From: a bacterium
GTDB taxonomy: Bacteria > SAR324 > XYD2-FULL-50-16
Reading direction: 5' to 3'
Assembly (NCBI GenBank): GCA_032250835.1
Contig: JAVVEA010000003.1
Span: 185,458 to 249,457, forward strand
DNA length: 64,000 bases
Part shown: piece by piece, positions 1,219 through 25,456 of the stretch
Layout of the letters: each line of letters opens with the position of its first letter
How positions within the stretch are numbered: position 1 is the stretch's first letter
Translations under genes and position numbers: made by a program
Notes under the pieces: model-generated
What the model was told of the DNA's origin: nothing
The model's database searches: none
What the model saw: the letters and a program-made list of their open reading frames with translations, nothing else

Positions 1219-1857
1219 TCACCATTTTAAGATTTTAGGCCCCAGGAAAAACCCCCCTAAAGTGAACATTATGGTGGGGATCAGGTGCCATGCGGTTTGG
1301 TGGTATAGGTTGTCGTTAGACTCTAACAGCATCAGGGCAAAGTTACCCATCGAAGTGGCAAAAAGGACCGATAAAGCCCCCGACCAATGAGGTAACACCG
1401 GGGCCAAACGCTTCACTTGAAAGAGCATGTAGGCCCCCGGTAGCACCAAAAAGAGCATGAAGCTTTGGATGCAAAAGCGGTCCATCGGTTGCGGATAGAT
1501 CTGTTCTGGGTAGTGGAGCAGCGTATGGGCCAACTGGAATAATAAGCTGCTTACCCAGATCGTTAGGGGTAGGAAGCCGAGGGACGGTAGCCATCTTGGC
1601 AGGTCCATCCTGGGGATCGCCAAATAACAAGCGAGCGCGGCGCTGACCAACGCCGAACCGCCCAACAGGGCCAAGTGGGTGATGAAAAGTGGTTCCAGTG
1701 CTTGATCCGCCAAATCACTGCGCAAACCATAGTACCAACTAACCGCCAAAAAGAAGAACAAGCTGGCCCCTACGCCCATTAGTGAGGCCATCCAAGGCGA
1801 CCTCACCGCTTGGCAATCCTGGCGGCTTAGGCTGTCGATCAATTGTTGGTTATTCAT
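1219..1857 (-). CDS. NrsF/DUF1109-family membrane anti-sigma factor
   Basis: N-terminal M..QQLIDSL, GLRSDL motif, about 6 TM helices, APV..P..G motif and C-terminal LGPKILKW; overlaps the ECF sigma gene. Confidence 0.8.
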   Translation of the reverse strand: MNNQQLIDSLSRQDCQAVRSPWMASLMGVGASLFFFLAVSWYYGLRSDLADQALEPLFITHLALLGGSALVSAALACYLAIPRMDLPRWLPSLGFLPLTIWVSSLLFQLAHTLLHYPEQIYPQPMDRFCIQSFMLFLVLPGAYMLFQVKRLAPVLPHWSGALSVLFATSMGNFALMLLESNDNLYHQTAWHLIPTIMFTLGGFFLGPKILKW

Positions 1858-2404
1858 CCGCAGGGCTGAGTTGCTCGGTGATTTTTTTCAGACATCGGTG
1901 CAGGGCTACCTTCACGGCGGATTCGCTCATGCCCATCTTTTGGGACGTCTCCCGGATAGAGTAGCCTTCAATTTTGCACAACTGAACCAGTTGGCGTTGC
2001 TGGCTGGGGAGTTTTTCCAGAATATCGGACAGTTGTTCGCGCTGCAACTGGTAAAAGGTTACATCCTGCGTCTCTTTTTCGAGGGTGAGGTGGTCTAAAA
2101 AGGTCTTTTCCAGCTCCAACCGGCGGTAGGCTCCACGGAAGTGGTCTTTCAAACGATAGTTGGCGATAGCAAACATCCAGGGCTTAAAGGGGCGGTTTGC
2201 TTGGTAGGTATGGCGGGCTTTATGGATGGAAATCAGGCATTCTTGGATCAGGTCGTTTAAACCTTCGGAATCACTGACCTTACTCCGCATCAATGCATGG
2301 AGTAACCGCTCGCACTGCCGCAAGACTTCGGCGTAAGCCAATTCGTCTCCGGCCTGCGCTTGCGCCATGAGGGTTTCCAGGGGGATCGTGGGTGTTGGGC
2401 TCAT
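1850..2404 (-). CDS. ECF RNA polymerase sigma factor (SigF-like)
   Basis: AQAGDELAY, DLIQECLISIHKARHTY..RPFKPWMFAIANYR (region 2); LP.QQR...KIEGYSIRETS..MGMSESAVKVALHR (region 4). Confidence 0.92.
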   Translation of the reverse strand: MSPTPTIPLETLMAQAQAGDELAYAEVLRQCERLLHALMRSKVSDSEGLNDLIQECLISIHKARHTYQANRPFKPWMFAIANYRLKDHFRGAYRRLELEKTFLDHLTLEKETQDVTFYQLQREQLSDILEKLPSQQRQLVQLCKIEGYSIRETSQKMGMSESAVKVALHRCLKKITEQLSPADE

Positions 2405-2645
2405 CGTCGACCACCTTCAAGGTCCAATCGTCAGTTCATCCAAAGCCCTCCTCAACCTGGTGGCTTTTTGGTGTATAAGCTTTAGTCGCGAAAGGTTGCC
2501 TTCAAGACGAGCGGTTTGCACCCTGGGCGTCATCGGGGCCAGCAGGCTAGTCCGTTCTCTTGGGGGCGGAGGCCTACTTTTACGCGTTGAGCACCCAATC
2601 AAGTTGGATTTGCCTACCAACCGGGGGGAAAAAGAAGGCTTGGTT

Positions 2646-2671
2646 GTAACCTTTCGCGTTGAGCAACCGAA
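2646..2671 (+). promoter_or_regulatory. ECF sigma (SigF-type) promoter GTAACC-N16-CGAA
   Basis: GTAACC TTTCGCGTTGAGCAAC CGAA, an exact match to the SigF consensus, oriented toward the TetR gene. Confidence 0.7.
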
Positions 2672-2743
2672 CAACTGGGGCAAGAGTTTCCAAAAGGAGC
2701 GCCCAAGACTAATCCCAGTCTCTGCTGCTAGTTTTATTCCTCG

Positions 2744-2772
2744 TTGACTTTATAGACGACTGGTCGTATTGT
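2744..2772 (+). promoter_or_regulatory. Sigma70-like promoter with embedded TetR/NemR-like operator
   Basis: TTGACT-N17-TATTGT, with the imperfect palindrome TAGACGACTGGTCGTA (2753-2768) in the spacer. Confidence 0.7.
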
Positions 2773-2800
2773 CAAACTATAACTGATAAGAGAGGGGTAG

Positions 2801-3394
2801 ATGAAACGCAGCATCAAACGTGAAGAAACCGAAGGCCGCCTGCTTGAGGTGGGCTTGTCTTTGTTTATCCAGCAGGGGTATCACGGTACGGGTCTTAAAG
2901 AAGTGGTGGATCAGGCCCAGATGCCCAAAGGCTCTTTTTACGCTTATTTTGACAGCAAAGAAGCCTTTGGTGGGTCGGTGGTAAACCACTTCGCCCAACA
3001 GGGGCTGGCCCGACTGGCGGTTTCCTTGGAGCAAGCTCCAGATCCGCTTTTGGGCCTGAGGGCTTTTTTTCAGGCCAACCGGGATAAGATGGAGTCCAGG
3101 GGATTTGCTGGGGGGTGTCTTTTGGGGAATTTTTCTAACGAGTTGGGCGCGCAGGCCCATGAGATCACACCGCATTTATTGCAAGGCTTGGGTAATTTAT
3201 CCTTGCACTTTGCGGAGGCTTTGGAAAAGGCCCAAGAGCTGGGGCTGGTCCGGCAAGATTTGGACGCATCCACGCTGGGCGACCTATTGCTCAACGGATG
3301 GGAAGGGGCGCTGATGAGGGCTAAAACCCAAGTTTCCCCTGAACCGCTGGATCAATTTTTGACCAGCTTTTTTGACCACCTCCTAAAACCGTAA
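2801..3394 (+). CDS. TetR/AcrR-family regulator, NemR-like
   Basis: HTH QGYHGTGLKEVVDQAQMPKGSFYAYFDSKEAFG; GGCLLGNFSNEL and GWEGALMRAK motifs of the NemR subfamily. Confidence 0.88.
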   Translation: MKRSIKREETEGRLLEVGLSLFIQQGYHGTGLKEVVDQAQMPKGSFYAYFDSKEAFGGSVVNHFAQQGLARLAVSLEQAPDPLLGLRAFFQANRDKMESRGFAGGCLLGNFSNELGAQAHEITPHLLQGLGNLSLHFAEALEKAQELGLVRQDLDASTLGDLLLNGWEGALMRAKTQVSPEPLDQFLTSFFDHLLKP

Positions 3395-16753: not shown

Positions 16754-17404
16754 ATGATCAAAATCCTGTTAGCCGACGACCATAAAATCATGCGCGATGG
16801 CATGACCCTACTGATGCAACGCGAGGGTGACCTAGAAGTGGTCGCCGAAGCGGACGATGGGGAAGAAGCGGTCCGCTTGGCTTACCAAACCCGCCCCGAT
16901 GTGGTGTTGATGGACATCAACATGCCCGGCATGGACGGAATTGAAGCAACCCGTAAGATTTTGGCCGAACTACCCGAAGCCCGTGTGATCGCCCTAACCA
17001 GCCACACCGAAGGCAAAATGGTGCAGGAGATGTTCCGCGCCGGGGCACTGGCCTTTTTAGGCAAAAACTGCTCGAACCAAGAGATTTTAGATGCCGTACG
17101 CTCGGTGATGACCGAGAAGTATTACATCAGCGAGGAGATGACCGGGAAGGTGATCGAAGACTTTGTGTTGCAACACATCCCGCAGATCACCGAAGTGAGC
17201 GACAAACTGACGAACCGCGAAAAAGAAGTGCTGCGCATGATCGCCGAGGGATTTTCCACCAAGAAAATCGCCGAGACACTTAACTTAAGCAGCAAAACCG
17301 TCGGTGCCCACCGCGAAAACCTGATGAAGAAATTAGACCTACACAACGTAGCCCAGCTAACCCGCTACGCCATCCAAAAAGGCCTGATCTCGCTGCATCC
17401 TTAA
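16754..17404 (+). CDS. NarL/LuxR-family response regulator
   Basis: LADDH, DVVLMDINMP, LTNREKEVL...G.STKKIA..L.LS.KTV..HR..LMKKL. Confidence 0.93.
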   Translation: MIKILLADDHKIMRDGMTLLMQREGDLEVVAEADDGEEAVRLAYQTRPDVVLMDINMPGMDGIEATRKILAELPEARVIALTSHTEGKMVQEMFRAGALAFLGKNCSNQEILDAVRSVMTEKYYISEEMTGKVIEDFVLQHIPQITEVSDKLTNREKEVLRMIAEGFSTKKIAETLNLSSKTVGAHRENLMKKLDLHNVAQLTRYAIQKGLISLHP

Positions 17405-17648
17405 AAAACGCCCTGCGTTTTCCTCGGCCAGGGGCTCCGCCGGTGCCCCTACCAGCCTCCTTCGGCCTATCCCTAGGCCACTCGTTCCCTAAAATAGAAA
17501 AACATTGTGGCCACCAAGGGGCACTTGCTTCTGTGGCTTTGCGGTGCGCCTGAGGTTTCTCTAGACGGCCCTTTGTTGAGCTCATCTCAAGTTCAACGCT
17601 CTGATTCGACTTGGAACTCTTGGGTTTCCATAGTAGCTTATTTTTCAG

Positions 17649-20600
17649 ATGAATAGAGGCTTCAACACACCCAGCACTCAACCTCCTATGGCCGTCCCTC
17701 TAATCCGTAGCTTTACCCCCTATGTGGAGCCCTCAAGGTCATCTGAATATTTTGGTTTATCGGCAACCAACCTTAATTGGGAGACTTTACTTGCCTCGCC
17801 TCATGTCATTATTTTGGGGCAACCGGGGGTGGGGAAGACCTTTGAGATGCGGCAGGCGGCTGATCAGCTTCATCTGGAGAACAAAGAGCTTTTCTACTGT
17901 ACCGCTACTGACGTCTTACTTAGAAGGCCCTTGCAGGTGCCTGATCAGCCTCGATTTCAACAAGCTCAGGAGCAGGGCAAAGGTTTAGTTTTTTTGATCG
18001 ACTCATTGGACGAGGGCAACTTGCTTCCTCAAGGTGGCAAGGTAAGGACGCTTTTTGAGGCCTTTTACCGTTCGCCTGATCTTGGCCAAGTGGACAAAAA
18101 ACAGTTACATTGGGTGATTTCAGTGCGGCCAACCTATTGGGCCTTACTCCCAGATCGGGAGCTCGCCCAGGACTACGCATTTGCTACGCCGCGAAAACAT
18201 ACCGATGCCGGGCTAGGCGAAACTGAAGCGCACAAAGAGAGCGAAGAAAAAGCCGAGGCGCTTCGGGTTTCCCGGCCAGAAAAGAGTGAAGCCCGCCTTC
18301 TTGAAGTCACCCTCAACCCATTGGATTACGAACAAGTAAAAGCCTATTGTCATCAGATGTTCCCTCAAGACGGTGGTGATTTTTTTCGGGCCATGGAAAC
18401 ACAAGGGAAATGGGCTAATCTGCCGCGGGAAATCAAATATTGGTTCAACTTTTGGCGCAACAATGGCTCCTTTGGGACCCGAAAGGAGCGGATGAAGGAC
18501 TATTGCGCTACTTTGCTGGACGAGGCCAACGAAGACCTCAGAGTGGGCATACCCGATGCCCAAAAGTTGGCAAGTCGACTAGCAGCTGCTTTGGTTTTAG
18601 TAGAAGTTGGGCAATTGGCCCCGGTTGATAGGGACTCAGATAAGGGTCTGGATTTGTCTATAATGCTTCCCGAGTTGCCTACCGCTCGCCAATTAACTTC
18701 CCTTATAGACAGGGCCGCATTTAAAGACTCGGGAACCAACGTTGCCTTTGTCGACACCGAGGTACGCGATTTTTTAGCCGCTTGCTGGATTTTTGAGCAG
18801 TCCAAAGTGGGACCGGCTTACGAACTGTGCGAGTTCTTTTTTGCTTCCTCAGAAATAGGTCCACTGGCTAACCGGAAAGTACCTGAAGTCCTGGCTTGGA
18901 TCGGTCAGTTTGAGCAAGGACCCCGGTTCTTTCGACCCCTCCTAAATGCGGCACCCGACCTGTTGATCAGTCAGGGCGATCCAGCATTGTTGTCAGACTC
19001 CAACCTGAAACTAGTACTCGAAGCGATCCGCCATTTTCCGTACAATCTGGTGCAGGGCTACCGCGCACCAGCTATCCGGAACCAACTCAGTCAGTCAATA
19101 GGTCGCCTTTCATTGATGGACTATTATCAAGAGGTGATTGAAGACATTGTCTGCCCCCCTGGTTTACGTACACTCTTGCTACAAGTGGTTTCGCTTTCTC
19201 AACCGGCTCGCTTTGGCAAGTTAGCTGCAGATATTATCCAAGACGAAAACCAGCCATACCCATGCCGTTATGCAGCGGTAGACATTTGCGAGAAAGCCGC
19301 AGATTCTGACGTGTTCACTTCCCTGCGCGAGTACTTTTTGGTCTTGCCCGTGACGGTTTCCCAGCAACTCCGCCTGGATCTATTAGAACTTTTATATCCT
19401 CAGCATCTATCGGTCGAGGAAGTGCTCGCTTTTTTTAAAGGTGGGGACCTCAGGTTGGGCAACACTTTCCTGACGGATAGGGACTATCTAGTTAAAGGCG
19501 TAGCGGATCAAACAAAAGACGAAGACCTATTGGAATTTTTTAGAGGTTTGGCAAACCTCATAGCGGACATAAAAAAGCCCTTGGAATCGCCAACCGGGCT
19601 CCAAACCAAAGAGCAATACAGGTGGGCGTTAGCCACCTTGGGCGCTGTATTCGAGCGATTATTTCTCACGTGGGATGAAGGGCAAAGCATAGCCCCTTTG
19701 GGAGATGCTGTTCGAACTCTTTCTGCGCTGGGGTTACATGGCCGGACCAAGCAATGGTCGTTTGAAGCCGCCTATAGTACGCGCCCAGAACTACGAAAAC
19801 AGCTCATAACAGCGGCCCTTTGGTCAACACCGGAACGGTTTTACGGGCGCTATTTTTACAGCGCCCTATATTTAACTGAAAGTGACCTCGCATGGATATT
19901 ACCCAAAATTGGTATTCAAGAAAATGAGGCAATTGATATAAGTCTGTGGGATTTAGCGCGGTCCTTCGTAGATTCAGAAGGTCTGCAAATACATAAAGAG
20001 CAACTATTGCAGCAATCTCGCGATAAACCTCGTCTACATCAAACACTCCGAAATTACCTCGATGCGCCCAAGCAACAGCCCCTTAAGTTGCCAGATTTAG
20101 GATCTCAATTAGAGTACGATATTCGCTTTCAAGCTGGCTTCAAACAGTGTCAAGAATTGCTTCCTCATCTTCAAGCCATCGAGACTGACGCAAAAGGGGA
20201 TTTGTTAATGCGTGTCTGGGATTTTGCCGAGGAGTACCGAAATTTCTCGGGTTCAAACCGGTCAGAAATTCCTATCGACCGATTCGATTTTGAACCAAAA
20301 GAGTTAAGCCGAGCTTTCCGCAAGGGGCTAGTTTTTTACTTTGAACATTTTGCCGCCACGCAGCCGACACCAGACAGTTCCACTTACGGTGACGTGTTAG
20401 CCTTGGTAGCATGTCAGTTGATCGCTTCGGTAGAAGGTGTACAAGCATTCGACCAATATAGGGCTCGCAAGGCTCTGCAACTTGGTTTTTACGAACTCAA
20501 CCAGTTTCCTTGGTGGTGGACATCACTAGCTTCTCGACATTTTGGGGTCCTTGAGGAAATCTTACCGCCTCTTTTCGAAGCAGAAATGAGAGCAACAGGG

Positions 20601-21989
20601 ACTGAAGAAAGGCCGCGACATGCACAAGTACTCAATCATTTTTCGGCTCTAGCGCTTGAATATTCTATCAAGCAAGAAATGCCGAAGGAATCAAAGTCAG
20701 GAAACGACCTGTTTGGGCAGGAGGACCGTTCTCTCACAGAATCCGAGTTGGAGCTGCAACATGCATTAAGTGCCTGTGCAGCCTCCATGCTTTGGCCGCT
20801 GTTTCAAACTATCCCCCCAAAATCAGTACATATTTTGGAGGCTGCACTGGCCATTTTACTTCCTCATTTTGGGAGCGATCCAAAACTAGTCCAGTTAATT
20901 TCCCAGCGGGCGCAGAACGAAGGAACACCCCAAGACGGGAAAATCGCCCAAAAATATTGGTCTGCTTGGCTGCGGTTGGAACCTAAATCTTGTTGGATTG
21001 CGGTTCGAAAAATATTGCCTGAGGACCTTCCAGTTAAGCAGGCGGTTTTGGAAGCGGTTTTTGATCACTCCTACCACGAAGCACATGATCAACGGGTCAA
21101 CTGGCTTGGTAGTCTAAGCGTGAACTTGCTGGACGAAATGCTGATTGCTTTTGCTACGGCATTTCTTTACGAGACGGATCCACGCAGAGAAAGAGTTCGG
21201 GTCCTTACCAGGACAAGGACAGGGATTGAGACTCGCGACCAGTTACTGCAGACTTTGGGTACGCATACCGATTCCGTTGCGGCCTACAACTCTTTGCTTG
21301 GTTTATTGCAAAATCCCCTTTTTCAGGGGAGGTATTACGAAATATCGGGGCATTTGGCGAGTATAAGAGGATTCCTATATTCACCAGCCCCCTGGAAGGC
21401 ATCCGACGTTTTGGAGTTCGAGCACTCCCACACCCACCAACCTAAAGACGCTCAACAGTTCTTCAAGCAAATCTGCAACCGCGTTGAGATGGCTCAAGAG
21501 CGCCTCCTTATAAGCGACTTTGCGCCCATGTATTTGATCAACAACAAAGCCTCCGAAGCGGACTTTCAGTTCTGGCTAAGTGATCAACTGGACCACAACT
21601 CCAATGGGTACCATGTGGGGATGGAGGAGATGAAATCCAACCGAAACCGCCGTGACATCACAGTAAGCCGTTCAAGTGAGCAGGGCCACTGGACCGTTGT
21701 CGTTGAAGCCAAATTGATCGAAGGCTCTAGATACAGTGCAAACGATCTTTTTTCGGCGCTAGAAAAACAGCTAGTAGAGCGCTACTTAGTAGGACCTGAA
21801 TCCGAGAAGAAAGGGGGCATCCTCTGGGTCGTCAAAAAACGCGATAAGACGTTCCTCTGGGAAGGCGAGACCTTGGAGTTTGCGGAGTTGATTGCCCGGC
21901 TCAACGAAAGAGCACAAGCCCTTGCCCGAGAAAAGGGGCTGGTGGGGTTGCGGGTTATGGGGGTTGATTTGAGGTCCAGCCGCATTTGA
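17649..21989 (+). CDS. Large STAND/NACHT-like NTPase with C-terminal PD-(D/E)xK-like nuclease; putative antiphage protein
   Basis: Walker A GQPGVGKT, Walker B FLIDSLDE, long helical middle region, C-terminal E.DFQ.WL...RRDITV...VVVEAK...QLVERYL. Visibly more AT-rich than its neighbours. Confidence 0.7.
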   Translation: MNRGFNTPSTQPPMAVPLIRSFTPYVEPSRSSEYFGLSATNLNWETLLASPHVIILGQPGVGKTFEMRQAADQLHLENKELFYCTATDVLLRRPLQVPDQPRFQQAQEQGKGLVFLIDSLDEGNLLPQGGKVRTLFEAFYRSPDLGQVDKKQLHWVISVRPTYWALLPDRELAQDYAFATPRKHTDAGLGETEAHKESEEKAEALRVSRPEKSEARLLEVTLNPLDYEQVKAYCHQMFPQDGGDFFRAMETQGKWANLPREIKYWFNFWRNNGSFGTRKERMKDYCATLLDEANEDLRVGIPDAQKLASRLAAALVLVEVGQLAPVDRDSDKGLDLSIMLPELPTARQLTSLIDRAAFKDSGTNVAFVDTEVRDFLAACWIFEQSKVGPAYELCEFFFASSEIGPLANRKVPEVLAWIGQFEQGPRFFRPLLNAAPDLLISQGDPALLSDSNLKLVLEAIRHFPYNLVQGYRAPAIRNQLSQSIGRLSLMDYYQEVIEDIVCPPGLRTLLLQVVSLSQPARFGKLAADIIQDENQPYPCRYAAVDICEKAADSDVFTSLREYFLVLPVTVSQQLRLDLLELLYPQHLSVEEVLAFFKGGDLRLGNTFLTDRDYLVKGVADQTKDEDLLEFFRGLANLIADIKKPLESPTGLQTKEQYRWALATLGAVFERLFLTWDEGQSIAPLGDAVRTLSALGLHGRTKQWSFEAAYSTRPELRKQLITAALWSTPERFYGRYFYSALYLTESDLAWILPKIGIQENEAIDISLWDLARSFVDSEGLQIHKEQLLQQSRDKPRLHQTLRNYLDAPKQQPLKLPDLGSQLEYDIRFQAGFKQCQELLPHLQAIETDAKGDLLMRVWDFAEEYRNFSGSNRSEIPIDRFDFEPKELSRAFRKGLVFYFEHFAATQPTPDSSTYGDVLALVACQLIASVEGVQAFDQYRARKALQLGFYELNQFPWWWTSLASRHFGVLEEILPPLFEAEMRATGTEERPRHAQVLNHFSALALEYSIKQEMPKESKSGNDLFGQEDRSLTESELELQHALSACAASMLWPLFQTIPPKSVHILEAALAILLPHFGSDPKLVQLISQRAQNEGTPQDGKIAQKYWSAWLRLEPKSCWIAVRKILPEDLPVKQAVLEAVFDHSYHEAHDQRVNWLGSLSVNLLDEMLIAFATAFLYETDPRRERVRVLTRTRTGIETRDQLLQTLGTHTDSVAAYNSLLGLLQNPLFQGRYYEISGHLASIRGFLYSPAPWKASDVLEFEHSHTHQPKDAQQFFKQICNRVEMAQERLLISDFAPMYLINNKASEADFQFWLSDQLDHNSNGYHVGMEEMKSNRNRRDITVSRSSEQGHWTVVVEAKLIEGSRYSANDLFSALEKQLVERYLVGPESEKKGGILWVVKKRDKTFLWEGETLEFAELIARLNERAQALAREKGLVGLRVMGVDLRSSRI

Positions 21990-22054
21990 CCGTATCGGTC
22001 TTACGCTTGGCTATCGAGAAGAAATGGCAAAATTCGCCACCTGCTCCCAAAATC

Positions 22055-22456
22055 CTACCGGATATTATGTTCCTTAAAAAGCGGAATGTACTTTTGGTCT
22101 TCGCCTAAGATGTGGCTGACGAGCCAGTCGGTCATGAAGGTCATGACGTCCACGCCAATCATGAAATTGCTGCTGCTGTCGAACTGGCTTTTTAACTCGT
22201 GCAGTTTGCGGGTGAAGCTTTCGTGCTTGGCTAAGTGGTCTTCGGCGCGTTCGTAGCCGATCTGTGCGAAGATTTCGGCTTCGTGCGAAAAGTGATCTTC
22301 GGTGTATTCTAGCAGCCCTTTAAAGATGTCTTGCAGTACCGCTTTCGATTCGCCTTGGCCCATGGCGGTCTGCAATTGCGCAATTAGGCCGAAGAGTTTC
22401 TGGTGCTGTTGGTCAATGGTGCCGATCCCTACGGCGAGGCTTTCATCCCACTTCAT
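22055..22456 (-). CDS. Bacteriohemerythrin
   Basis: MKWDESLAVGIGTIDQQH, HFSHE, H...H, WLVSHILGED; start at ATG 22456. Confidence 0.92.
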   Translation of the reverse strand: MKWDESLAVGIGTIDQQHQKLFGLIAQLQTAMGQGESKAVLQDIFKGLLEYTEDHFSHEAEIFAQIGYERAEDHLAKHESFTRKLHELKSQFDSSSNFMIGVDVMTFMTDWLVSHILGEDQKYIPLFKEHNIR

Positions 22457-22716
22457 TGGTACCAATCTACAAATCTGTAATTGCGTAAAATTAGGCCGAA
22501 CCCAAAAGGCCCCACCTTTGGAGAGAGCCCAGGCTAACCTACCCGAATCAGGCTGGCAACGGTCCAATTAACATCTAGTCAAGCAGATTACCTAAAGCTT
22601 TGAATCCGGGGGCCTTTTGTTAGCCTAAGCGGCCCTTGCCTGGACGCCTGTTTTTGCGGTAGGCCATAAGACACAAAGGCGGCAGTCGAGCCTTTTGCCA
22701 AAAAATTAGGAGCAAC

Positions 22717-24055: not shown

Positions 24056-25456
24056 GTGAGGCGATACCTTTTAAATGCGGCGCTGCTAAGCAGCGGTGCC
24101 AGTGGGGCCGTTCTTTGGATCGCCTCTAACCGAATGTTAGCCCCCTGGTTTGGCTTGAGCGACAGCGGAGCGGCCTTGACCTCGGTGCTGCTGCTGGCCG
24201 CCGGACTGGGCGCTTGGCTGGGCGGTTGGGCGGTCGAGCACAGGCCCCAGGGATTACTGTTAACCCACAACATGACGGCCTTGGCGCTGGCCTGCCTGGC
24301 GGTCCCTAGTTTACGTGCGGGACTTAGCTCACTGTTCGGGCAGCCCAGCCTGTTGGCTAGCCCCTGGTTGGCCTCGATCCTGCTTTTTGGTTTGCCCGCT
24401 GCGGCTGGGGGGTTTTTGATGCCTCTGCTGTTGCGCCTGGGTTTGTTGTGGCAAGGGGACCGGGCCTTGGGTGCGGGGCTCGGCAGGCTGTTGGGGAAGC
24501 AGTTGCTGGGATGCTGGCTGGGCTATTGGTTGGGACGGTATGGCCTGTTGCCTTGGCTGCGGATCGACGGCATCTTTTTAGGTCTGGGGCTCATTTGGGG
24601 GGTCTTGGCCTGCTGGGGGTATGTACTCTGGGCCCCGGGACGCTTTTCTAAGGGGAATTTGAGTCTCCTGGCGGTTTTGGCCGGGCTTTTGGCCACTTCC
24701 GGCGGGACGCTGGCCCGATTGCCGCTGCCCGAAGGGGTGGCTGCTGATCTCCAAGGGCCTGACGCCCGTTAACGATTGATCCACCGTACTGACCCCGAGG
24801 CCCCCAGTTGGACCTTGTGGCGCGACCTTGAGCGAGTCGAGCAGGTAGGTTCGGAACCCGAACTTTTGGCTTGGGAATTGGCCGCTTGGGCAGGCCCGAT
24901 GCCTCGGCAGGTTTTGTTGTGGGGCCCCGGCAGTCTGGCTTGGGCGGTGCAAATCAGGTCCCGTTTTCCCTCGGCCCAGTTGACTTGGCTCAACCCCGAG
25001 GCGGCCTGGGTGGAACTGGCCCAGCGGCTACCGGGCGGGGAGGCCTTGGTGCGCCGCCAAGCGGACCCACGCCAATGGTTGGCCGGGCACCGCCAAAGTT
25101 ATGATTGGATCTTATCGGCCCAGGGACCCCGCCCCCCGGCAGCTTGGGCGAGCCAAGAGTTTTACCGGCTAGTGGCCAACCGCTTGACCCGCGAGGGGGT
25201 GTTTTTAACCGCTTTGGAGTCCCCCCGTGCCAGCCCGCTGAGCCGGTCCACCTCGGCTACTTTGGGCCGCGTGTTTGGCCATCGGCAGGAGTTTTTAGGT
25301 CCCCTGGGGCCGGTATGGCTGGCAGCGCCGCGCCCCTTTGGTCAAACCTCGAGCCCCGAAGCGTTGTCCTTTAAGCCCCAACCCTTGGGCCAGGAATCGG
25401 GTGCGGAGATTTTTAGCGATTTAGAAGCGCCGCTTGCGCGGCTAACATTACCTTAA
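24056..25456 (+). pseudogene. Membrane-fused spermidine-synthase-like gene interrupted by in-frame TAA at 24770-24772
   Basis: A TM module (24056-24772) and a Rossmann-like module (24776-25456; D.RQWL...YDWI, SQEFY..V..RL...GVF) lie in the same frame, separated only by TAA-CGA. Confidence 0.55.

What the first reader, a model, noticed from the sequence alone, without database searches (positions are those of the whole stretch)
17649..21989. Stand-alone 1446-aa STAND/NACHT-like ATPase with C-terminal PD-(D/E)xK nuclease: candidate single-gene antiphage system with inverted architecture
Seen: Walker A GQPGVGKT (~17817) and Walker B LIDSLDE (~17994) sit at the extreme N-terminus with no domain in front. 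About 1000 aa of helical, repeat-like sequence follow, then a C-terminal SEADFQ...RRDITV...VVVEAK...QLVERYL segment with restriction-endonuclease-like D...ExK spacing. The gene is visibly more AT-rich than its flanks and sits alone between a NarL regulator and hemerythrin. Known: characterised Avs/AVAST STAND proteins carry an N-terminal effector and a C-terminal TPR sensor, and oligomerise on binding phage proteins. Inference: a horizontally acquired NLR-like immune protein with the nuclease placed after the sensor, which may imply a different activation geometry.
Basis: partly seen in the sequence, partly recalled or inferred. Interest (0 to 1): 0.8.

Follow-up and report, generated by a model that had tools for sequence, protein, structure and literature searches.

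The report
Divergent HyoA/Avs10-type antiphage NACHT nuclease
This is an intact, horizontally acquired gene for a large bacterial immune-receptor-like protein (ATP switch, helical sensor, DNA-cutting tail) that is a very distant member of an antiphage family already catalogued and tested, so its unusual-looking layout is the family norm and not a new kind of system.

Summary

- **N-terminus:** aa 1-480 model as a NACHT module. All 40 listed Foldseek rows are animal NLR entries, best E 4.8e-10.
- **C-terminus:** aa ~1267-1446 model as a PD-(D/E)xK nuclease (pLDDT 89.6; BamHI Z 8.7). E1303, D1336, E1353, K1355, Q1374 and Y1379 are kept in 156-157 of 157 relatives.
- **Acquisition:** the gene is a 4.65-kb low-GC insert between a NarL-type regulator and a hemerythrin. 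These two genes abut in three fetched relatives; a fourth lacks this hemerythrin.
- **Family:** it is not a new architecture. It aligns end to end with NCBIfam NF058534, "NACHT antiphage protein HyoA" (E 5e-121, but 405 bits against a cut-off of 1200). 740 cluster representatives share the layout.
- **Published context:** the Erebus/Hypnos/bNACHT64 group, called Avs10, is reported to sense phage major capsid protein (PMC13581612).
- **Divergence:** this copy is an outlier, at most 24.6% identical to any relative.

This scan reached the same family on other genomes. Verdict: new, divergent member of a known kind.

The parts
17405..22054 (.). Inserted segment of 4.65 kb between the NarL-type regulator's stop and the hemerythrin's stop; GC 49.6%
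   Evidence: The tblastn synteny shows the regulator about 43-160 nt from a hemerythrin in G007, G006 and G010, and about 280 nt from the Na:Ala symporter in G003. None has a gene in between. No convincing target-site duplication, integrase or transposase was found.
17649..21989 (+). Gene for the 1446-aa NACHT-sensor-nuclease protein (P0001); the start may instead be the ATG at 17688 (M14)
   Evidence: ORF. NCBIfam HyoA match E 5.1e-121, 405.5 bits, end to end. The Atlas record begins at residue 14.
17766..19043 (+). NACHT NTPase module, about aa 40-465 (nucleotide-binding domain, helical domain, winged-helix domain)
   Evidence: The AF2 model of aa 1-480 has pLDDT 83.5 and pTM 0.81. In Foldseek against PDB, 144 matches have E<=0.001, and all 40 listed rows are animal NLR entries such as NOD2, NLRP3, NLRC4 and NAIP, best E 4.8e-10.
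17817..17840 (+). Walker A, GQPGVGKT (aa 57-64)
   Evidence: Sequence. G62 is kept in 147/148 and K63 in 146/148 relatives.
17994..18014 (+). Walker B with the NACHT signature, LIDSLDE (aa 116-122); DSLDE fits D[GAS]hDE
   Evidence: Sequence. D118 148/149, D121 146/149, E122 149/149. The signature is as defined in the preprint 10.1101/2022.07.19.500537 (passage read).
19044..21446 (+). Helical sensor-like region, about aa 466-1266, the least conserved part of the protein
   Evidence: Median identity to relatives is 18.8-19.3% over aa 481-1150. A family profile gives weak matches to HEAT-like alphaRep repeats (E 1.7e-4 to 0.04). Model residues 1-117 (aa 1150-1266) are all helical. The fold of aa 466-1149 was not modelled here.
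21447..21986 (+). PD-(D/E)xK nuclease domain, about aa 1267-1446. Catalytic candidates: E1303 (21555), D1336 (21654), E1353 (21705), K1355 (21711), plus Q1374/Y1379 (21768/21783)
   Evidence: The AF2 model has pLDDT 89.6. D1336 sits at the start of a strand, E1353 and K1355 in the next strand, E1303 at the start of the preceding helix, and Q1374/Y1379 in the following helix. VIA-align gives BamHI Z 8.7 (rmsd 3.6, 133 aa), CdiA-CT 8.5 and 8.1, Can2 7.6, McrC 7.5, HamA 7.1.

Best explanation
The gene encodes a single-protein antiphage receptor of the HyoA/EruA superfamily. That superfamily appears to correspond to the published Hypnos/Erebus/bNACHT64 group, called Avs10.

Proposed mechanism:
1. 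At rest the protein is an autoinhibited monomer held by its NACHT NTPase.
2. During infection the long helical region binds a phage protein. For tested Avs10 proteins this is the HK97-fold major capsid protein.
3. Binding releases the NACHT module to exchange nucleotide and oligomerise.
4. Oligomerisation brings the C-terminal PD-(D/E)xK nuclease domains together.
5. The nucleases cut DNA, which stops the phage and probably kills the cell.

Shown here: the gene is intact; its three-part anatomy; the NACHT fold and signature; the nuclease fold with every catalytic residue in place; its end-to-end relation to the HyoA profile; and its recent horizontal insertion.

Inferred from the family only: antiphage activity, oligomerisation, DNA as substrate, and the trigger. 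I put capsid protein as the trigger of this particular copy at about 0.45.
For: - **Family relation.** NCBIfam HyoA matches at E 5.1e-121 over aa 37-1442 and EruA at 5.3e-30. All 7 of 7 relatives tested are best matched by HyoA, at 531-1161 bits.
- **Shared architecture.** 740 cluster representatives match at E<=1e-3, with the same length class.
- **NACHT.** The Walker A and B motifs and the D[GAS]hDE signature are present and conserved. The fold matches animal NLRs.
- **Nuclease.** The model is confident and the catalytic E, D, ExK and QxxxxY residues lie on the canonical elements. Of the 28 VIA-align rows that cover the domain, 24 are by title restriction endonucleases, nuclease toxins or defence nucleases.
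- **Selection.** The protein keeps 60 of the 68 family columns that are at least 85% conserved and in which it has a residue.
- **Accessory gene.** Homologues were found in 2 of 41 related genomes with the protein as query, and in 3 of 88 genomes of the phylum with the HyoA profile. Both counts include G000. The gene is a low-GC insert at a conserved junction.
Against: - The HyoA score of 405.5 bits is far below the equivalog cut-off of 1200, and EruA's 104 bits is below its cut-off of 1000.
- The protein is at most 24.6% identical to any of 156 relatives, whereas the relatives typically have a partner at about 40%.
- It differs at 8 of 68 strongly conserved columns, among them W106A, R258L, W343L and W898F. 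It also lacks the family's 'RFHHR' segment, with V368 where 130 of 155 have H.
- PADLOC v2.0.0 gives no hit, and Pfam gives only sub-threshold P-loop hits.
- It does not lie in a defence island. Its neighbours are conserved housekeeping-type genes.
- That NCBIfam 'HyoA' is the Hypnos protein rests on the names and on earlier unchecked notes of this scan. No paper I could read states it.
- No experiment exists for this protein or for its host.
Confidence: 0.78

Rival explanations
1. It has the same machine but a different trigger. It is a deep, separate lineage of the superfamily whose fast-evolving helical region has been retargeted to a phage or host cue other than the HK97-fold capsid protein, possibly with altered autoinhibition.
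For: - The sensor region is only about 19% identical to relatives.
- The protein is a lone long branch, with maximum identity 24.6%.
- Several family-conserved residues in the NACHT and winged-helix part are replaced.
- The paper reports sensor families for which no phage trigger was found, Avs22-24 and bNACHT20 (PMC13581612, passage).
Against: - The sensor is about equally divergent among all family members (20-22% between others), so low identity is the family norm and not a sign of retargeting.
- The HyoA profile aligns through the sensor in a single stretch.
- According to the paper, Avs sensors recognise folds across targets that lack sequence similarity.
Confidence: 0.25
2. It is an inactive relic: a horizontally acquired defence gene that is no longer functional and is drifting.
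For: - It has an unusually high number of departures from conserved columns for the family: 8 of 68, rank 18 of 157.
- The same genome holds a clear remnant of a second copy, a 101-aa ORF on another contig.
- No promoter-like site lies upstream above chance.
Against: - A 4341-nt frame is open without a single stop.
- All Walker and nuclease catalytic residues are intact.
- 60 of 68 conserved columns are kept.
- Both domain models are confident.
Confidence: 0.08
3. It is not a defence gene. It is a STAND signalling ATPase with a host role, for example tied to the adjacent NarL-type regulator.
For: - It lies directly downstream of, and on the same strand as, a response regulator.
- There are no defence genes next to it.
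- STAND NTPases include non-immune regulators (PMC13581612, passage).
Against: - The regulator is conserved at this locus without the gene in the 4 of 4 relatives fetched, so the pairing is an accident of insertion.
- A conserved nuclease effector and the match to a family curated as antiphage fit immunity.
- The distribution is patchy.
Confidence: 0.05

Closest known systems
HyoA (NCBIfam NF058534, 'NACHT domain-containing antiphage protein HyoA'). Probably the protein of the Hypnos system, a link inferred from the names and from earlier notes of this scan.
   Same: - Same length class: 1446 aa against a profile of 1430 positions.
- A single end-to-end alignment.
- N-terminal NACHT, long helical middle and C-terminal nuclease with the same conserved E, D, ExK and QxxxxY residues.
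- Its nearest relatives score 531-1161 bits on this model.
   Different: - It scores 405.5 bits, a third of the equivalog cut-off.
- It is at most 24.6% identical to any relative.
- It has lost several family-conserved residues: W106, R258, W343, W898 and H368.
Avs10 (Erebus/Hypnos/bNACHT64), as named in 'Diverse bacterial pattern recognition receptors sense the core phage proteome', Nature 2026, PMC13581612
   Same: A single-protein STAND/NACHT antiviral receptor with a large helical sensor and an effector needed for cell death. If HyoA and EruA are the Hypnos and Erebus proteins, this gene belongs to the same superfamily.
   Different: - Tested Avs10 proteins come from Enterobacteriaceae such as EhAvs10, whereas this one is from a sparsely sampled phylum (88 species genomes held).
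- Its trigger is unknown.
- I read passages only. None of them stated where the Avs10 effector lies, and the supplementary tables that list sequences and clades were closed.
EruA (NCBIfam NF058535, 'NACHT domain-containing antiphage protein EruA'), the sister model
   Same: Homologous over aa 214-864 (E 5.3e-30). The relatives of this gene also match it at 64-267 bits.
   Different: The match is much weaker than to HyoA (104 against 405 bits) and comes in three stretches. The cut-off of 1000 is not approached.
Avs1-5 / AVAST and most bNACHT proteins (N-terminal effector, central NTPase, C-terminal sensor)
   Same: The same logic applies: a STAND NTPase switch, a repeat-type sensor, and a nuclease effector activated by oligomerisation. 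For SeAvs7 and SeAvs3 the effector is a Cap4-type PD-(D/E)xK nuclease (PMC13581612, passages).
   Different: The domain order differs. Here the NTPase is at the N-terminus, with no domain before it, and the nuclease is at the C-terminus.
PD-(D/E)xK nucleases with solved structures: BamHI, CdiA-CT toxins, the Can2 nuclease domain, McrC, HamA
   Same: They share the core fold with the acidic residues and the lysine on the second and third strands. Z is 7.1-8.7 over 106-146 aligned residues.
   Different: Sequence identity is only 9-21%. The Z values are in the range the tool calls middling. No sequence-level match to any PDB chain was found.

Membership tests
NACHT clade of STAND NTPases | Walker A GxxxxGK[ST], and Walker B followed by the D[GAS]hDE signature | tested here: met
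   GQPGVGKT is at aa 57-64 and DSLDE at aa 118-122. Both are conserved in 146-149 of 148-149 relatives. The signature definition was read in 10.1101/2022.07.19.500537.
NACHT clade of STAND NTPases | NBD, helical-domain and winged-helix fold like that of NLR proteins | tested here: met
   The AF2 model of aa 1-480 has pLDDT 83.5. In Foldseek against PDB all 40 listed rows are animal NLR entries, E 4.8e-10 to 2.2e-6, probability 1.00. The Pfam NACHT model itself is not significant (E 0.14).
HyoA equivalog (NCBIfam NF058534) | Whole-protein score at or above the curated cut-off of 1200 bits | tested here: not met
   The score is 405.5 bits, or 402.9 bits in the genome search. It is therefore filed as a distant relative and not as HyoA.
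HyoA equivalog (NCBIfam NF058534) | End-to-end collinear match to the profile | tested here: met
   One stretch aligns aa 37-1442 to profile positions 26-1428 of 1430.
EruA equivalog (NCBIfam NF058535) | Whole-protein score at or above the curated cut-off of 1000 bits | tested here: not met
   The score is 104.4 bits in three stretches.
Avs10 (Erebus/Hypnos/bNACHT64) | Activation by HK97-fold major capsid protein | not testable with these tools
   This needs co-expression or binding assays. No capsid gene of family PF05065 was found in the own genome (0 matches).
Avs10 (Erebus/Hypnos/bNACHT64) | Membership of the paper's NTPase clade and sensor structural cluster | not tested
No authentic Hypnos, Erebus or bNACHT64 sequence was available here.
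PD-(D/E)xK nuclease superfamily | Acidic residue at the start of the second core strand, (D/E)xK on the third, and a further acidic residue on the first helix | tested here: met
   D1336 comes just before the strand at model residues 188-194. E1353 and K1355 lie in the strand at 197-208. E1303 is at the start of the helix at 154-167. These residues are kept in 156-157 of 157 relatives.
PD-(D/E)xK nuclease superfamily | Restriction-endonuclease-like alpha/beta core fold | tested here: met
   VIA-align against 48,161 chains gives BamHI Z 8.7, CdiA-CT 8.5 and 8.1, Can2 7.6, McrC 7.5, and OkrAI and BstYI 7.4. Of the 28 rows that cover the domain, 24 are nucleases by title. Z is middling by the tool's own note. 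Foldseek E-values were weak, 1e-3 to 3e-2.
Known defence systems in PADLOC-DB v2.0.0 (2023) | A match to any of the 5027 models | tested here: not met
   There were 0 families at E<=1. That library predates the naming of Hypnos and Erebus in 2024, going by the date of reference 16 of the paper.

The most novel reading that the evidence does not exclude
This protein founds a third deep lineage of the HyoA/EruA (Avs10) superfamily in a poorly sampled phylum. Its sensor would be tuned to a trigger other than the capsid protein seen for enterobacterial Avs10, and its resting state would be held differently, because it lacks several residues that are nearly invariant in the family's NACHT and winged-helix part (W106, R258, W343, and H368 of the 'RFHHR' segment).
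Probability: 0.25. Interest if true: 0.45.

Novelty: new member of a known kind. Interest (0 to 1): 0.3.

Why it matters
- It extends that family to a very divergent copy in a sparsely sampled phylum.
- The locus is a clean natural example of single-gene defence acquisition: one low-GC gene dropped between two genes that are otherwise adjacent, with no mobile-element genes.
- The copy is an outlier that keeps every catalytic residue. It could therefore help to define which positions of the family are truly essential, and how far the sensor can drift.
- It opens no long-standing question.

Tried and rejected
- **Pfam, PADLOC and PDB sequence searches of the whole protein** gave nothing usable. 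A family-profile search of PDB gave only weak alphaRep/HEAT-like matches in the sensor.
- **Literature searches:**
  - 'HyoA'/'EruA' returned 35 papers. None of the 20 listed is on this family; the EruA listed is an unrelated SlyA-type regulator.
  - 'NACHT + antiphage + Hyo' returned 0 papers.
  - 'bNACHT64' returned only the Avs paper.
  - The published Kibby 2023 paper is not held, and its preprint does not mention bNACHT64.
  - The van den Berg 2024 paper was not found.
  - So the equation HyoA = Hypnos is not documented by anything I read.
- **Foldseek of the 297-aa C-terminal model** was muddled by its helical N-terminal part. Acetyl-CoA carboxylase central domain came top and the nucleases had weak E-values. 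VIA-align resolved this.
- **Target-site duplication.** A 13-nt repeat, TCCTTAAAAA[A/G]CG, sits at both junctions (17398 and 22071). One copy spans the regulator's stop codon. The other lies in hemerythrin coding sequence, which aligns roughly with the corresponding hemerythrin end in G007. 55 short repeat families occur in this 4.9 kb. I rejected it as chance.
- **Promoter and terminator scans** were at shuffle level: 3 against 3.4 expected, and 7 against 6.2.
- **The search for related loci** with the 129-row alignment could not run, because no stretch was conserved enough. I used a profile search of the phylum instead.
- **Complex prediction.** I paired the sensor (aa 465-1150, with an alignment) with the mature HK97 capsid protein (Swiss-Prot CAPSD_BPHK7, residues 104-385) as a stand-in. 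The verdict was 'no answer', with score 0.00 in both runs. This is evidence neither for nor against binding.
- **Prophage capsid gene in the own genome (PF05065):** none found.
- **The hemerythrin as a synteny anchor** failed, because it is multi-copy (14 matches in G000). The Na:Ala symporter worked.

Full report
**1. The observation**

The window has a single uninterrupted ORF at 17649..21989 on the + strand, 1446 aa with an ATG start.
- GQPGVGKT at aa 57-64 (nt 17817).
- LIDSLDE at aa 116-122 (nt 17994).
- SEADFQ at aa 1302-1307, RRDITV at aa 1334-1339, VVVEAK at aa 1350-1355 and QLVERYL at aa 1374-1380.

The upstream gene (16754-17404, +) has a response-regulator receiver domain plus a GerE/LuxR domain. 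The downstream gene (22055-22567, -) is a hemerythrin, followed by a Na:Ala symporter.

The gene is compositionally odd:
- Its GC is 49.4% against 54.7% for the genome.
- Only 2.7% of 3545 genome windows of the same length are as low.
- Its GC3 is 50.2% against 63.7-71.8% in six neighbouring genes.

The ESM Atlas holds the sequence from residue 14 on, so the ATG at 17688 is an alternative start.

**2. Relatives**

Pfam gives only sub-threshold P-loop and STAND hits at aa 44-125. PADLOC v2.0.0 gives nothing, and the PDB sequence search gives nothing.

NCBIfam gives a single end-to-end match to NF058534, 'NACHT domain-containing antiphage protein HyoA'. The match is E 5.1e-121 and 405.5 bits, aligning aa 37-1442 to profile positions 26-1428 of 1430. 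It is far below the equivalog cut-off of 1200 bits. The sister model NF058535, EruA, matches at 104.4 bits against a cut-off of 1000.

- The word-indexed protein search found 6 relatives, the best 22% identical over 98% of the query.
- The exhaustive HMMER search used aa 247-1446, because the tool takes at most 1200 aa. It found 740 cluster representatives at E<=1e-3, 332 at <=1e-10 and 3 at <=1e-30. Nearly all of the 150 listed are 1350-1490 aa long.
- Seven of seven relatives that I scanned are best matched by HyoA at 531-1161 bits, all still under the cut-off, with EruA at 64-267 bits.

This protein is an outlier within the family. It is 22.2% identical to the 156 others at the median and 24.6% at most, whereas the others typically have a partner at about 40%. 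Only 7 of 156 have a median identity as low.

**3. Anatomy**

In a MAFFT alignment of all 157 sequences:
- NTPase residues are nearly invariant: G62 147/148, K63 146/148, D118 148/149, D121 146/149, E122 149/149, R160 148/149.
- DSLDE fits the NACHT signature D[GAS]hDE, as defined in the Kibby et al. preprint (passage read).
- Six C-terminal residues are nearly invariant: E1303 157/157, D1336 157/157, E1353 156/157, K1355 156/157, Q1374 156/157, Y1379 157/157. E1326 is kept in 155/157.

*N-terminal model.* An AlphaFold2 model of aa 1-480, built with 54 aligned sequences, has pLDDT 83.5 and pTM 0.81. Foldseek against PDB gives 144 matches at E<=0.001. All 40 listed rows are animal NLR entries or complexes: NOD2, NLRP2/3/7/9/14/1, NLRC4, NAIP, and oocyte-lattice entries that by my recollection contain NLRP5. 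The best E is 4.8e-10.

*C-terminal model.* A model of aa 1150-1446 has pLDDT 89.6 and pTM 0.71. Its first 117 residues are helical. The rest is an alpha/beta domain in which:
- D1336 sits at the start of one strand.
- E1353 and K1355 sit in the next strand.
- E1303 is at the start of the preceding helix.
- Q1374 and Y1379 are in the following helix.

This is the canonical PD-(D/E)xK arrangement.

*Fold searches of the C-terminal model.* Foldseek on this model was muddled by the helical part. VIA-align against 48,161 chains gave:

| Match | Z | Other figures |
|---|---|---|
| BamHI | 8.7 | rmsd 3.6, 133 residues |
| CdiA-CT toxins | 8.5 and 8.1 | |
| Can2 | 7.6 | |
| McrC | 7.5 | 21% identity |
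| OkrAI, BstYI | 7.4 | |
| HamA | 7.1 | |

Of the 50 rows shown:
- 28 cover the domain, defined as model range starting at residue 100 or later.
  - 24 of them are by title restriction endonucleases, nuclease toxins or defence nucleases.
  - One is of unknown function.
  - Three are unrelated enzymes.
- 21 cover only the helical part.
- One spans the whole model.

The Z values are middling by the tool's own note. The case for a nuclease rests on the fold together with the invariant catalytic residues.

*The middle of the protein* (about aa 466-1266) is the least conserved part, at 18.8-19.3% identity. The family profile weakly matches HEAT-like alphaRep repeats there. I did not model aa 466-1149.

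**4. Acquisition**

With the protein as query, 2 of 41 related genomes, G000 included, hold a match. The other is G002, where two pieces of one truncated open frame on a short contig match at 20% and 25% identity. With the HyoA profile, 3 of the 88 genomes held for the phylum match at E<=1e-20, none over the cut-off.

The Na:Ala symporter is found in 8 of 21 genomes, G000 included. I fetched the region from the four relatives with the best matches (G007, G006, G010, G003). I did not fetch G002, G011 or G009, where the matches were weaker and the fetched loci shorter or cut at a contig end. The tblastn results were:
- In G007 the order HAD, GFO-family oxidoreductase, cytidylyltransferase, regulator, hemerythrin, symporter, M28 peptidase is as in the window. 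The regulator lies about 43 nt from the hemerythrin.
- In G006 and G010 the regulator and the hemerythrin lie about 155-160 nt apart.
- In G003 the regulator (91% identical) lies about 280 nt from the symporter, with no hemerythrin.

None of the four has anything between these genes. In the window they are 4650 nt apart. The gene is therefore an insertion in this lineage.

I found no integrase, transposase or convincing target duplication.

**5. What is known**

The Nature 2026 paper PMC13581612 and its preprint versions were read as abstract and passages only. The paper reports that:
- Avs10 is defined as Erebus/Hypnos/bNACHT64.
[quoted passage not shown] - The paper cites Kibby 2023 and van den Berg 2024 for these systems.

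A phage paper lists Erebus and Hypnos among defence systems and mentions a phage inhibitor of Hypnos (PMC12390725, passages).

That NCBIfam's HyoA and EruA are the Hypnos and Erebus proteins is my inference. It rests on the names, on both being NACHT antiphage models, and on earlier unchecked notes of this scan, which reached the same family in at least 10 other genomes. No text I could read states it. The passages I read do not say where the Avs10 effector lies, and the supplementary tables were closed.

**6. Mechanism**

By homology, the most likely sequence is:
1. An autoinhibited monomer.
2. Binding of a phage protein by the helical region.
3. NACHT-driven oligomerisation.
4. Juxtaposition and activation of the C-terminal nucleases.
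5. DNA cleavage and abortive infection.

The anatomy, the folds, the catalytic residues and the insertion are shown here. Everything functional is inferred from the family. My confidence that it is an antiphage NACHT-nuclease of this superfamily is 0.78. My confidence that its own trigger is a capsid protein is about 0.45.

**7. Points against, and open points**

- The protein fails both equivalog cut-offs.
- It is a long branch.
- It departs from 8 of the 68 strongly conserved columns in which it has a residue, ranking 18th of 157 by mismatch fraction. The departures include W106A, R258L, W343L and W898F.
- It has V368 where 130 of 155 relatives have H, in an 'RFHHR' segment.
- It keeps the other 60 columns, and both domain models are confident, so decay is unlikely.
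- It is not in a defence island.

**8. Verdict**

The functional reading is supported, but the claim of a new, inverted architecture is not. This is a new and very divergent member of a known kind. Interest is modest.

Noticed in passing
L003 (G000 contig C14) 1420-1725, with neighbours at 1086-1388 and 1753-3120: A 101-aa ORF is 43% identical over 74 aa to the last part of this protein (aa 1369-1441; E 4e-12). That is closer than the at most 24.6% whole-length identity to any database relative. It looks like the remnant of a second copy. It is flanked by a CopG/BrnA-like antitoxin ORF and a 455-aa TIR-domain protein (TIR_2, E 2.2e-20), so it forms a small defence islet on another contig.
   Followed up: partly
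window 24056-25456: Two ORFs without Pfam matches lie between the Na:Ala symporter and the M28 peptidase: a 238-aa hydrophobic one and a 226-aa one, in a region of 61-63% GC with strongly negative AT skew. In all 4 fetched relatives the symporter and the peptidase are directly adjacent, and neither ORF is found there by tblastn. This is a possible second lineage-specific insertion.
   Followed up: partly
window 22055-22567 and genome-wide: The hemerythrin family is highly multi-copy in this genome, with 14 matches in G000, and in several relatives, with 14-15 in G006 and G007. G007 has two tandem copies at the syntenic position.
   Followed up: no
window 18744-18758 (aa 366-370) and aa 106, 258, 343, 898: The protein has 'AFVDT' where the family consensus reads 'RFHHR' (V368 against H in 130 of 155), and it replaces four near-invariant residues (W106A, R258L, W343L, W898F). 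From memory, a winged-helix histidine helps hold NLRs in the ADP-bound off state. Whether H368 is that residue was not tested.
   Followed up: no
window 17398-17410 and 22071-22083: A 13-nt direct repeat, TCCTTAAAAA[A/G]CG (12 of 13 identical), sits at both edges of the inserted segment. One copy spans the regulator's stop codon. The other lies in the hemerythrin coding sequence, so it is probably chance.
   Followed up: yes
L028 (G002 contig C264) and L029 (G012 contig C77): The only other HyoA-profile matches in the phylum's 88 genomes are these two. One is a copy truncated by a contig end in G002 (418 bits, profile positions 233-1402). The other is a 1325-aa open frame in G012 that matches only profile positions 200-557 (108 bits), perhaps a different NACHT protein.
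   Followed up: no
window 17649 versus 17688: A public protein collection (the ESM Atlas) holds this protein starting at residue 14, so gene callers used the second ATG. Neither ATG has an obvious Shine-Dalgarno sequence upstream.
   Followed up: partly
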